Below, piece by piece: positions 42,108 to 42,989 of a stretch of DNA of 64,000 nucleotides. The translations under genes and the position numbers were made by a program. Below the pieces are notes generated by a model. The model searched no databases, had not been told where the DNA came from, and was given only the letters and a program-made list of their open reading frames with translations. Source of the stretch: an uncultured Bacilli bacterium. Its GTDB lineage: Bacteria; Bacillota_I; Bacilli_A; RF39; UBA660. Location: NCBI GenBank assembly GCA_934168205.1, contig CAKPMX010000003.1:409-64408 (forward strand). The letters are read 5' to 3'. Positions within the stretch are counted from its first letter, which is position 1. Every line of letters begins with the position of its first letter.

Positions 42108-42989
42108 TTATAATATTTCTATACTTTCATAAACTATATATGATATATCCTTATCTTTTGAGCCCCGCAATATTGGAAATTTTTCTAAATCTCTTTTAGG
42201 TACACCATTATCAAAAGTTCTATATTCTCTAGCAAAAGTAAATTTATTATCATTCATCATTTCAATTTTTAATTTATTTTCTATATATTCACTTACATCT
42301 ATTGATAAATCAGTGGGTTCATATTTGTAATCTTTTGGAATAAATGATTTTGCTATCTCGATTATATAATTACTGGATTGTTCAACCTGCTCTTTTGTAT
42401 AATTGTTTTTATTTCTCTTTTCAGCTATCATAAATTGTCTGGCACTTTCTTGATATTCCAAATAACTTATTTGTTTTCCAGTTGTATTTATATAACTTAA
42501 AATATCAAATAATCTTATAATGTGATGGTATTGTTTAGGATCAAATTCCCACTTTTGAAATTCCAATTCTTTACTAGGATATTCATGCGTTAGTGCTTTT
42601 CTTTTTTCATACATAGCACCTAACATACTTTTTAAGTCTGGCCTTATCTGTCTAAACAATTCTTTAACATAATTATCACCAATTGAATATGGTGTATCTA
42701 TCGCTTCAATGTAACTAAAATTTCCTTTTTTAATAACATTATAAAAAGTAATTAAATCTTTTACATCTATTGCGCCAGTTTCTAATTCTATAGTTATACT
42801 CGTTACTTTTCTAAAAATAATATCATGTAGATTTGGTAGTATAATTGCTTTGCAATCAATATCACTTTGTTCATCATCAACATTATAATTTTGACTTCCA
42901 TATAATCCTATATAAATAACATTGTATCCTTTGTTTTCTAATATTTCTTTGTATTCAACTAATTGTTTATATATTTGTTCTCGCTTCAC
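42108..42989 (-). CDS. Pol-beta-superfamily nucleotidyltransferase (293 aa) cargo gene
   Basis: G-S-x10-S-D-I-D (LYGSQNYNVDDEQSDIDC) followed by a third acidic strand (ELETGAIDVKD). Helical C-terminal half. Confidence 0.5.
   Translation of the reverse strand: MKREQIYKQLVEYKEILENKGYNVIYIGLYGSQNYNVDDEQSDIDCKAIILPNLHDIIFRKVTSITIELETGAIDVKDLITFYNVIKKGNFSYIEAIDTPYSIGDNYVKELFRQIRPDLKSMLGAMYEKRKALTHEYPSKELEFQKWEFDPKQYHHIIRLFDILSYINTTGKQISYLEYQESARQFMIAEKRNKNNYTKEQVEQSSNYIIEIAKSFIPKDYKYEPTDLSIDVSEYIENKLKIEMMNDNKFTFAREYRTFDNGVPKRDLEKFPILRGSKDKDISYIVYESIEIL

What the first reader, a model, noticed from the sequence alone, without database searches (positions are those of the whole stretch)
42108..42989. 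Pol-beta-superfamily nucleotidyltransferase cargo gene in the moron slot between the late activator and the terminase
A 293-aa protein carries the canonical GS-x10-[S]D-x-D nucleotidyltransferase motif (LYGSQNYNVDDEQSDID) and a third acidic strand. It is inserted between the ArpU-like regulator and the HNH/terminase, a hotspot for phage accessory genes. No partner gene (HEPN, effector or cyclase-associated) is adjacent. Candidate identities are an AadK/ANT(6)-like nucleotidyltransferase, a stand-alone CD-NTase/SMODS-type signalling enzyme, or an MNT-type toxin. The first is favoured slightly by the similar length and the MxxEQ... N-terminus; it would make this a phage-borne antibiotic-modifying gene.
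Basis: partly seen in the sequence, partly recalled or inferred. Interest (0 to 1): 0.7.

Follow-up and report, generated by a model that had tools for sequence, protein, structure and literature searches.

The report
Phage RlaP-type RNA-repair nucleotidyltransferase gene
The gene is real and encodes an active-looking nucleotidyltransferase, but it is a divergent member of the known RlaP family that adds nucleotides to broken RNA ends, not an antibiotic-resistance or signalling enzyme.

Summary
The ORF exists as described: window 42108-42989, minus strand, 293 aa, GTG start behind an AGGAGG site. Its G31-S32...D43-x-D45 motif and D75/D78 are conserved across more than 800 homologues.

It is not ANT(6)-like, a CD-NTase or an MNT. 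Sequence profiles, phage family models and gene neighbourhoods place it in the RlaP family (PF10127, RNA-ligase-associating Pol-beta; T4 NrdC.11 is a member). A 2025 preprint showed that two Pseudomonas RlaP enzymes add one or two nucleotides to RNA 3'-OH ends, preferring broken tRNA.

The 293-aa subfamily scores just under Pfam's threshold (16-19 bits against 23) and has an extra C-terminal segment of about 45 aa. Orthologues at 61-68% identity lie beside RtcB or Rnl RNA ligases in 16 of 37 viral loci. More distant relatives lie beside ligases and polynucleotide-kinase-like genes.

In this roughly 35.6-kb prophage of an uncultured gut Bacilli bacterium the gene is solo. I found no ligase or kinase in the window. 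The gene is co-transcribed with the upstream regulator and followed by a conserved terminator. A phage tRNA-Arg(CCT) lies 1 kb downstream.

Most likely it restores nucleotides on damaged tRNA or RNA ends, with sealing left to a host ligase. That last step is inferred. Verdict: a new member of a known kind, of modest interest.

The parts
42108..42989 (-). RlaP-like nucleotidyltransferase gene, 293 aa plus stop, GTG start
   Evidence: ORF list. 802 homologues. Its only PHROG match is phrog_388 at 7.4e-11, which is the T4 NrdC.11 family. Best Pfam match is PF10127 RlaP at 19.2 bits against a cut-off of 23. It scores 227 bits against an HMM of 26 ligase- or kinase-adjacent relatives.
42855..42905 (-). 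Catalytic motif, residues 29-45 (LYGSQNYNVDDEQSDID): G31-S32 and D43-x-D45
   Evidence: Translation. Invariant in alignment A1. G31 is invariant and S32, D43 and D45 are at least 90% conserved in A2. It aligns to the T4 NrdC.11 motif GSHLYGTSTPESDVDFKEIFVP (hhalign).
42756..42767 (-). Third acidic strand, residues 75-78 (DVKD): D75 and D78
   Evidence: Predicted strand 72-78 in the AlphaFold model. D75 and D78 are invariant in A1. D78 is at least 90% conserved in A2.
42249..42635 (-). Helical domain, residues about 119-247, with conserved K129, K131, H135, E136, K152, H155, H156, R159 and K191-R192-N193
   Evidence: Helices 119-247 in the model, pLDDT mostly 86-96. Conservation. This region is covered by the match to ligase-associated relatives, residues 2-241.
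42111..42248 (-). Subfamily-specific C-terminal extension, residues about 248-293 (strand, two short helices, strand), absent from the ~250-aa relatives
   Evidence: Many relatives in the representative search end at about query residue 247. IMG/VR relatives L038-L048 match only residues 2-256. The model shows E250-257, H265-270, H272-277 and E285-292 at pLDDT 56-78. Conserved residues are A253, R254, R257, T258, F259, P264, K265, D267, F271, P272, D281, S283, Y284, Y287 and E288.
43000..43005 (-). Shine-Dalgarno AGGAGG, ten bases upstream of the GTG start, inside the 3' end of the regulator gene
   Evidence: Sequence read directly.
42991..43419 (-). Upstream regulator-like gene (142 aa). Its stop codon lies one base before the NTase start, so the two are probably co-transcribed
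   Evidence: phrog_36 'transcriptional regulator' at 5e-8. No Pfam, NCBIfam or PDB match. Directly upstream of the NTase in its closest relatives: L001-L003, L005-L010, L084 and L085.
42027..42056 (-). Terminator-like hairpin (GAGAGCAG-AAAAAA-CTGCTCTT) followed by a T-run, 52 bases after the NTase stop
   Evidence: Terminator scan: 2 sites found against 0.5 expected. A hairpin plus T-run is kept at the same place in L005, L006, L008, L084 and L085 with different, mutually complementary stem sequences.
41055..41131 (-). Phage tRNA-Arg(CCT) with encoded CCA, 1 kb downstream. Context only: a functional link to the NTase is not shown
   Evidence: ARAGORN and Rfam. Sequence. Kept 0.55-1 kb downstream in the close relatives L001-L003, L005-L009 and L085. 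L084 has tRNA-Leu(CAG) at that place instead.

Best explanation
The gene encodes a divergent member of the RlaP family (RNA-ligase-associating Pol-beta nucleotidyltransferases, PF10127). Characterised RlaP enzymes use a two-metal Pol-beta active site to add one or two nucleotides, without a template, to the 3'-OH of RNA, and they prefer broken tRNA. In this protein the corresponding residues are G31-S32, D43, D45 and D78.

The proposed role is to put back nucleotides that a ribotoxin has removed from cleaved tRNA, so that an RNA ligase can reseal a functional tRNA. Anticodon nucleases of the RloC kind are the model case. Such an activity helps a phage, or its lysogen, survive tRNA-targeting host defences or competitor toxins.

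In this prophage the gene is transcribed with the upstream regulator and is followed by its own terminator. The prophage has no RNA ligase or polynucleotide kinase, so sealing would have to be done by a host ligase.

Shown here: family placement, intact catalytic residues, and ligase/kinase association of orthologues and relatives. Taken from the literature: the enzyme activity. Inferred: that this protein has that activity, that it serves counter-defence, and that it depends on a host ligase.
For: 1. Sequence family.
- The best Pfam match is RlaP, residues 11-172.
- 71 of 106 relatives match RlaP at E <= 0.01, and no other family comes close.
- The only PHROG match is phrog_388, the family of T4 NrdC.11 (452 bits). 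NrdC.11 itself passes the RlaP cut-off at 46.6 bits, and the preprint PMC12776372 names it as an RlaP.
- hhalign of the family profile against NrdC.11 gives 88% probability, E 2.8e-6.

2. Closest isolate-phage homologue. The Lysinibacillus phage LC76P1 protein (34% identity, E 2e-25) passes the RlaP cut-off (28.3 bits). It sits between an RNA ligase (PF09414) and a kinase-HD phosphatase.

3. Orthologues with the same length and C-terminal extension, at 61-68% identity.
- They lie 7-970 bases from RtcB, whose Pfam score is 203 bits, and near Rnl.
- 16 of the 37 viral loci of this subfamily have an RNA ligase within 6 kb.
- Further cases occur in MAG prophages L086, L090 and L093.

4. More distant relatives.
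- An HMM built only from 26 relatives outside the subfamily, each lying 1.5 kb or less from a ligase or kinase, scores the query at 227 bits over residues 2-241.
- One relative is a kinase-NTase fusion (P0142).

5. Structure. The AlphaFold model (pLDDT 86) has an NTase domain plus a helical domain. It matches phage 'nucleotidyltransferases' in BFVD, including T4-like ones, with TM up to 0.69 and E 1.7e-12.

6. Biochemistry of the family. RlaP enzymes add 1-2 NMP to an RNA 3'-OH, prefer Mn2+, prefer the 5' half of cleaved tRNA, and do not act on DNA or protein (PMC12776372). In jumbo phages the distribution of RlaP mirrors that of RNA ligases (PMC7824862).

7. Existing annotation. An 89%-identical protein is already named 'RNA repair pathway protein' in NCBI nr (DAM50303.1).
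Against: The query and its whole 293-aa subfamily fall below Pfam's RlaP cut-off: 16-19 bits against 23.

No RNA ligase, RtcB or kinase homologue occurs anywhere in the 64-kb window, which contains the whole prophage (precomputed Pfam for the neighbours). The defining 'ligase association' therefore fails at this locus. I could not check whether the host has RtcB.

No member of this subfamily has been tested biochemically. The characterised enzymes are Pseudomonas proteins that are only distantly related. That preprint itself notes that the 3'-OH product of RlaP is not directly a substrate for RtcB, which needs a 3'-phosphate.

The function of the C-terminal extension is unknown. The related loci were found by similarity to the query, so the neighbourhood counts are not an unbiased sample.
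Confidence: 0.62

Rival explanations
1. Same enzyme family, but working without a ligase. On this reading the solo RlaP repairs or extends RNA 3' ends directly. It might rebuild trimmed tRNA 3'-CCA ends. It might instead tail or tag particular RNAs during infection, such as the phage tRNA or the tRNA-like element.
For: The prophage has no ligase or kinase. Six of the 37 subfamily loci have neither repair genes nor tRNA genes nearby, and 15 have phage tRNA genes within 6 kb. The preprint reports that full-length tRNAs and rRNAs in total E. coli RNA are also labelled by RlaP. The subfamily has its own C-terminal extension, which could change substrate choice.
Against: Orthologues carrying the same extension sit directly beside RtcB or Rnl, which argues for ligase-coupled work in the subfamily. 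The phage tRNA-Arg already encodes CCA. The tRNAs near these genes mostly read codons that are rare in the host: AGG occurs at 5.3 per 1000 codons in phage ORFs against 1.8 per 1000 in host ORFs. Codon supply alone therefore explains their presence.
Confidence: 0.2
2. An aminoglycoside or lincosamide nucleotidyltransferase (ANT(6)/AadK, ANT(4'), ANT(9) or Lnu type), which would make this a phage-borne antibiotic-modifying gene.
Against: These matches reflect only the shared NTase-plus-helical-domain architecture: TM is 0.36-0.40 and identity 14-19%. The ANT(4')-Ia score is 12.9 bits against a cut-off of 500. ANT(6)-Ib gives TM 0.21 at E 1.2e-2. Only 2 of 106 relatives touch any ANT model, at E > 6e-4. 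No ANT Pfam family appears among the hits of the 106 relatives. The family's neighbours are RNA ligases, kinases and tRNA genes, not resistance genes.
Confidence: 0.03
3. A stand-alone signalling or oligonucleotide-making nucleotidyltransferase, of the CD-NTase/SMODS type or like Hailong HalB, acting in defence or anti-defence.
Confidence: 0.04
4. A minimal-NTase (MNT/MntA) antitoxin, or a toxin of the MenT/AbiEii kind, that nucleotidylylates a protein partner or blocks tRNA acceptor ends.
Against: The matches cover only the roughly 70-residue NTase core, against models about 100 aa long. The query's own MntA score is 12.9 bits against a cut-off of 60. There is no HEPN or other toxin/antitoxin partner next to the gene. 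No DUF1814/AbiEii match was found. The helical domain is fused in the protein and conserved together with ligase-associated relatives.
Confidence: 0.05

Closest known systems
RlaP family (PF10127, RNA-ligase-associating Pol-beta nucleotidyltransferases): Pseudomonas fluorescens and P. aeruginosa RlaP, phage T4 NrdC.11
   Same: It shares the N-terminal signature GS..Y......SD.D.K.I..P and a third aspartate. It has an NTase domain followed by a helical domain. It belongs to the same PHROG (phrog_388) as T4 NrdC.11. Its orthologues and relatives lie beside RtcB, Rnl ligases and polynucleotide-kinase-like genes, often close to phage tRNA arrays.
   Different: It scores below the Pfam cut-off (19.2 against 23 bits), as does the whole subfamily. 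It carries a subfamily-specific C-terminal extension of about 45 aa. The published PfRlaP structure instead ends in a single helix that packs on the NTase domain. At this locus it is solo, with no ligase or kinase in the prophage. No member of the subfamily has been tested biochemically.
Lysinibacillus phage LC76P1 gene LC76P1_00029 (WAX16466.1), within an Rnl - RlaP - kinase/HD cassette
   Same: It is the closest homologue in an isolated phage: 34% identity over residues 4-216, E 2e-25. It has a similar length of 295 aa.
   Different: It passes the RlaP cut-off at 28.3 bits and is flanked by an RNA ligase and a kinase-HD phosphatase. It comes from a 165-kb virulent-type phage. Its C-terminal part does not align with the query's.
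Aminoglycoside nucleotidyltransferases ANT(4')-Ia and ANT(3'')(9), and Hailong HalB (nearest solved structures)
   Different: TM is only 0.36-0.5 and identity 13-19%. There is no significant sequence-profile match. The gene neighbourhoods are different. No drug-binding or oligo-dA-related features were identified.
CCA-adding enzymes and other phage tRNA nucleotidyltransferases
   Same: They are Pol-beta superfamily enzymes that add nucleotides without a template to RNA 3' ends. They occur in phages that carry tRNA genes and RNA-repair genes (PMC7824862).
   Different: There was no match to the CCA-adding (PolyA_pol) family in the Pfam scans, the C-terminal domains differ, and RlaP is reported to have little NTP specificity.

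Membership tests
RlaP (PF10127) | Sequence match to the PF10127 model at or above its gathering score of 23 bits | tested here: not met
   The query scores 19.2 bits, E 1.1e-3, as its best Pfam hit. RtcB-adjacent orthologues score 16.5-19.4 bits or nothing. Relatives do pass: LC76P1 at 28.3, P0225 at 29 and T4 NrdC.11 at 46.6. 71 of 106 relatives match at E <= 0.01. The protein is therefore formally outside the Pfam boundary but linked to it through its relatives.
RlaP (PF10127) | Homology over both domains to Pol-beta NTases that are genomically associated with RNA ligases or polynucleotide kinases | tested here: met
   227 bits over residues 2-241 against an HMM of 26 ligase- or kinase-adjacent NTases from outside the subfamily. 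tblastn E 2e-25 to the LC76P1 RlaP. hhalign 88% probability to T4 NrdC.11. Both fall in phrog_388.
RlaP (PF10127) | Pol-beta catalytic residues: G-S, D-x-D and a third carboxylate | tested here: met
   G31, S32, D43, D45 and D75/D78 are invariant in A1. Among 106 relatives G31 is invariant and S32, D43, D45 and D78 are at least 90% conserved.
RlaP (PF10127) | N-terminal NTase domain plus C-terminal helical domain forming a cleft | tested here: inconclusive
   The AlphaFold model (pLDDT 86) shows an NTase core at residues 1-115 and helices at 119-247. It matches phage NTases in BFVD with TM up to 0.69. No solved RlaP structure was found in the PDB copies searched, by sequence or by fold. A direct comparison with PfRlaP was therefore not possible.
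RlaP (PF10127) | Gene lies in the neighbourhood of an RNA ligase (RtcB or a 5'-phosphate ligase) | tested here: not met
   At this locus there is none anywhere in the 64-kb window (neighbours). In the subfamily, 16 of 37 viral loci have RtcB and/or Rnl within 6 kb, and several have RtcB 7-19 bases away.
RlaP (PF10127) | Adds 1-2 NMP to an RNA 3'-OH (Mn2+-dependent) and prefers damaged tRNA | not testable with these tools
   The activity is known only for the P. fluorescens and P. aeruginosa enzymes (PMC12776372).
ANT(6)/AadK and other aminoglycoside or lincosamide nucleotidyltransferases | Match to an ANT or Lnu family model, or close structural similarity to a solved ANT | tested here: not met
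   ANT(4')-Ia scores 12.9 bits against a cut-off of 500. Only 2 of 106 relatives touch ANT(4') or ANT(9) models, weakly, and none touches ANT(6). ANT(6)-Ib 8vxb gives TM 0.21 and ANT(4') gives TM 0.36-0.40.
CD-NTase / SMODS (CBASS cyclases) | Match to CD-NTase models or fold, with an adjacent effector | tested here: not met
MNT/MntA-HEPN type VII toxin-antitoxin | A small (~100-140 aa) NTase matching the MntA model, with an adjacent HEPN toxin | tested here: not met
   MntA scores 12.9 bits against a cut-off of 60. The protein is 293 aa with a fused helical domain. There is no HEPN gene next to it.
Hailong HalB | Match to the HalB model, with an adjacent HalA membrane effector | tested here: not met

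The most novel reading that the evidence does not exclude
The 293-aa subfamily, with its own C-terminal extension, may be an unrecognised branch of RlaP specialised for temperate phages of gut Bacilli. In the solo form seen here it might work without any phage ligase. It could directly rebuild damaged 3' or anticodon-side ends of tRNAs. It could instead act on the phage's own unusual tRNA-like RNA at 35251-35374, which has no anticodon arm and no encoded CCA. Together these would form a ligase-independent, tRNA-centred counter-defence module.
Probability: 0.1. Interest if true: 0.6.

Novelty: new member of a known kind. Interest (0 to 1): 0.3.

Why it matters
The result removes a false lead: this is very unlikely to be a phage-borne aminoglycoside or lincosamide resistance gene.

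It also shows that a large set of proteins belongs with the RlaP RNA-repair nucleotidyltransferases. More than 800 proteins from gut metagenomes, MAGs and prophages are involved. None of the 120 listed carries a precomputed Pfam domain, and most have no name. Their orthologues next to RtcB and Rnl ligases extend the known reach of RNA-repair cassettes from large virulent phages to small temperate phages of uncultured gut Bacilli.

The solo, ligase-less arrangement gives a simple test case. It can show whether an RlaP enzyme can protect a phage or lysogen using only host ligases.

Tried and rejected
- Single-sequence search of PDB sequences found nothing significant; the best relevant hit was kanamycin NTase at E 0.87. 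The family profile did no better: MNT E 0.1, KNT E 0.43.
- No solved RlaP structure turned up in either PDB copy searched, so I could not compare the model directly with the published PfRlaP structure.
- The AFDB Foldseek library was unavailable.
- The broad alignment A2 was too diverse for the search for related loci, so I used A1 instead.
- A tblastn search of the window with RtcB, both Rnl types, the kinase, DUF2828 and other recurrent neighbour families found nothing. This rules out a hidden partner in the prophage.
- I could not confirm the 'HNH' label of ORF 41618-42058 or the 'ArpU' label of ORF 42991-43419. Only phrog_36 'transcriptional regulator' matches the latter.
- The Burroughs and Aravind 2016 paper that named RlaP is not in the held library. 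I relied on the 2025 preprint and the 2021 jumbo-phage review, both of which cite it.
- An exact-match search for the tRNA-like element's 3' part in IMG/VR found nothing.
- I considered a functional link between the NTase and the neighbouring tRNA-Arg(CCT) and set it aside. The tRNA encodes its own CCA. AGG codons are three times as frequent in the prophage ORFs as in the host ORFs. The nearly identical gene in L084 has tRNA-Leu(CAG) at that place instead. Codon supply is therefore the simpler explanation.
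Full report
**Observation**

The ORF is real and lies on the minus strand of window 42108-42989. It has 293 codons and a GTG start. The plus-strand reading of the same coordinates is full of stop codons.

An AGGAGG site at 43000-43005 lies ten bases before the GTG. The TAA stop of the upstream gene (42991-42993) is one base from the start codon.

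The strand AIDVKD supplies D75 and D78. A search of 5.8 billion proteins found 802 homologues, nearly all about 293 aa.

- In 25 homologues of 65-90% identity, G31, S32, D43, D45, D75 and D78 are invariant. So are many residues of the helical half and of the C-terminal tail.
- In 106 relatives down to about 25% identity, G31 is invariant, and S32, D43, D45 and D78 are at least 90% conserved.

This is a selected, probably active enzyme gene.

**Setting**

The window is chromosome of a low-GC (30%) bacterium. The same gene is found in gut MAGs labelled 'uncultured Bacilli bacterium'.

The gene lies in a prophage.
- An integrase gene sits at 54881-56026, next to a host tRNA cluster.
- A 17-base direct repeat, at 20558 and at the 3' end of tRNA-Pro (56120), brackets about 35.6 kb.

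The gene order on the minus strand is as follows:
1. Regulator-like gene, 42991-43419. It is matched only by phrog_36 'transcriptional regulator'.
2. The nucleotidyltransferase.
3. A hairpin plus T-run at 42027-42056.
5. A 72-aa ORF.
6. A SprT-like 96-aa ORF.
7. tRNA-Arg(CCT), 41055-41131.
8. A 76-aa ORF.
9. Large terminase, 39171-40844.

The hairpin after the gene is kept at the same place in relatives, with different but self-complementary stems. The regulator and the nucleotidyltransferase therefore probably form one transcription unit that ends there.

The 'HNH' ORF has no match in Pfam, PHROGs or PDB sequences. It is absent from the same place in the 89%-identical relatives L005-L009, so it is a sporadic insertion.

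**What the protein is**

Family libraries give one consistent answer.
- The best Pfam hit is RlaP (PF10127) over residues 11-172, but it is below the cut-off: 19.2 bits against 23.
- The only PHROG hit is phrog_388 'nucleotidyltransferase' at 7.4e-11.
- T4 NrdC.11 scores 452 bits against phrog_388 and 46.6 bits against RlaP. The 2025 preprint on RlaP names it as a family member.
- A profile of the family aligns to NrdC.11 with 88% probability.
- Of 106 relatives taken from an exhaustive profile search (1762 hits), 71 match RlaP at E <= 0.01. No other family apart from generic NTase domains matches more than two of them.
- NCBIfam gives only weak touches among the relatives: MntA in 16 of 106, ANT(4') and ANT(9) in 2 each, and HalB in 1.
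- PADLOC gives only the ~100-aa minimal-NTase candidate PDC-S09, matched over residues 1-71.

**Structure**

The AlphaFold model is confident, with pLDDT 86.3. It shows three parts:
- an NTase core, residues 1-115;
- a helical domain, residues 119-247;
- a less confident C-terminal strand-helix-helix-strand, residues 250-292.

Against solved structures it finds only the generic two-domain architecture.

Against predicted viral structures it matches phage 'nucleotidyltransferases' much better. Bacillus phage BCD7 gives E 1.7e-12 and TM 0.69. Other hits include phage G gp218, T4-like phages and baculovirus HE65. No solved RlaP structure turned up in the PDB copies searched.

**Neighbourhoods**

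This is the most informative evidence. The closest homologue in an isolated phage is in Lysinibacillus phage LC76P1 (34% identity, E 2e-25). It passes the RlaP cut-off and sits between an RNA ligase (PF09414 with OB domain) and a kinase-HD phosphatase. One relative is a kinase-NTase fusion.

I fetched 79 IMG/VR loci and 17 genome loci and clustered their ORFs.

Among the 37 viral loci whose protein has the query's length and C-terminal extension (58-100% identity):
- 13 have RtcB (Pfam 203 bits), in several cases only 7-19 bases from the gene.
- 3 more have an Rnl-type ligase (PF09414).
- 15 have phage tRNA genes within 6 kb.

The ~250-aa relatives at 45-51% identity (L038-L048, except L039, L040 and L043) lie in islands with up to three kinase-like genes and an Rnl ligase. 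In all of these but L047, whose held DNA ends about 1.7 kb past the gene, a tRNA array follows 2.5 kb downstream.

RtcB was seen only with the extension-bearing subfamily. This may simply reflect host clade.

An HMM built only from 26 ligase- or kinase-adjacent proteins outside the subfamily scores the query at 227 bits over residues 2-241. An 89%-identical protein is already labelled 'RNA repair pathway protein' in NCBI nr.

**This locus**

The gene is solo here. tblastn with all RtcB, Rnl, kinase and DUF2828 representatives found nothing in the 64-kb window. Precomputed Pfam hits for the prophage genes from about 10 kb upstream to 10 kb downstream show only recombination, PcfJ/PcfK and structural genes.

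The window's own lineage (L001-L003, L005-L009, L085) keeps the order regulator, NTase, SprT-like gene, tRNA-Arg(CCT), terminase. The 98%-identical copy in L084 has tRNA-Leu(CAG) and a different terminase instead.

The tRNA-Arg encodes its own CCA. AGG codons occur at 5.3 per 1000 in prophage ORFs against 1.8 per 1000 in the host ORFs of the window. Codon supply therefore explains the tRNA without invoking the enzyme.

**Mechanism**

The preprint PMC12776372 reports the following for two Pseudomonas RlaP enzymes:
- They add one or two NMP, from any NTP, to RNA 3'-OH ends.
- They work best with Mn2+.
- They prefer the 5' half of a cleaved tRNA.
- They do not act on DNA or protein.
- They can partly restore aminoacylation of a tRNA that lost a nucleotide before ligation.

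A 2021 survey notes that the distribution of RlaP in jumbo phages mirrors that of RNA ligases.

I therefore propose that this protein restores nucleotides on ribotoxin-damaged tRNA or RNA ends. Because the prophage has no ligase, sealing would be left to a host ligase.

- Shown here: family placement, catalytic residues, and ligase association of orthologues.
- From the literature: the enzyme activity.
- Inferred: activity of this particular protein, the counter-defence role, and use of a host ligase.

The main rival is the same enzyme working without a ligase, as a direct 3'-end repairer or tailing enzyme. The ANT, CD-NTase/HalB and MNT readings are each unlikely, at 5% or less.

**Novelty and verdict**

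The family is known and has recently been characterised biochemically. What is new is modest.
- A large subfamily falls just under the Pfam cut-off: 16-19 bits, even for RtcB-adjacent members. All 120 listed homologues lack a precomputed Pfam domain.
- The subfamily carries its own C-terminal extension.
- It occurs in small temperate phages of uncultured gut Bacilli, sometimes with RtcB and sometimes solo.

My verdict is a new member of a known kind, interest about 0.3. The general interpretation, a Pol-beta NTase cargo gene, is right. The favoured identity, an ANT(6)-like resistance gene, is not supported.

Noticed in passing
window 35251-35374, minus strand: A tRNA-like element (Rfam tRNA, 39.8 bits, E 4.9e-7) has normal acceptor, D and T arms. 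Its anticodon region is replaced by a 66-base insert that folds as a long imperfect hairpin, and no CCA is encoded. ARAGORN finds nothing, even with intron search. The element lies between the minor-capsid gene and the scaffold gene. It is identical in L001-L003. An exact search for its 3' part in IMG/VR found nothing.
   Followed up: partly
window 41055-41131, minus strand: A phage-encoded tRNA-Arg(CCT) with encoded CCA lies 1 kb downstream of the nucleotidyltransferase. AGG codons occur at 5.3 per 1000 in prophage ORFs against 1.8 per 1000 in host ORFs of the window. The 98%-identical copy of the module in L084 carries tRNA-Leu(CAG) at that place instead.
   Followed up: yes
It has no match in Pfam, PHROGs or PDB sequences. 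It is present in L001-L003 and L084 but absent from the same place in the 89%-identical relatives L005-L009. It therefore looks like a sporadic, possibly mobile, insertion.
   Followed up: partly
window 20558-20574 and 56120-56136: A 17-base direct repeat, TGGTCGGGAAGACAGGA, occurs at the 3' end of host tRNA-Pro and again 35.6 kb away. These are probable attachment sites of the prophage. The integrase gene is at 54881-56026.
   Followed up: partly
window 35618-37381, minus strand (L001 15612-17372): The minor capsid protein (Phage_min_cap2) carries a weak precomputed hit to an ADP-ribosyltransferase toxin domain, PF03496.
   Followed up: no
window 12483-12703, minus strand: A T-box leader (124 bits) lies upstream of the 847-aa ORF at 9897-12440, presumably an aminoacyl-tRNA synthetase gene of the host.
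   Followed up: no
L038, L041, L042, L044-L046, L048 (IMG/VR contigs of 65-131 kb): These large phage contigs carry an RNA-repair island with up to three kinase-like genes, an Rnl ligase, the ~250-aa RlaP relative and two conserved unknown genes (clusters C31 and C32, no Pfam hit). A tRNA array of 8-16 genes follows 2.5 kb downstream. L047 has the same island, but its held DNA ends before any array.
   Followed up: partly
L069, L080, L097: Related phage or MAG contigs carry suppressor-type tRNAs within their tRNA arrays, near the RlaP relative. ARAGORN calls them tRNA-Pyl(CTA) and tRNA-SeC(TCA). They may indicate stop-codon recoding in those phages.
   Followed up: no
window 39171-40844, minus strand: The large terminase has an N-terminal helix-turn-helix region at residues 9-55, with weak CENP-B_N and HTH_28 hits. 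No separate small terminase was recognised; only a 76-aa ORF precedes it.
   Followed up: no
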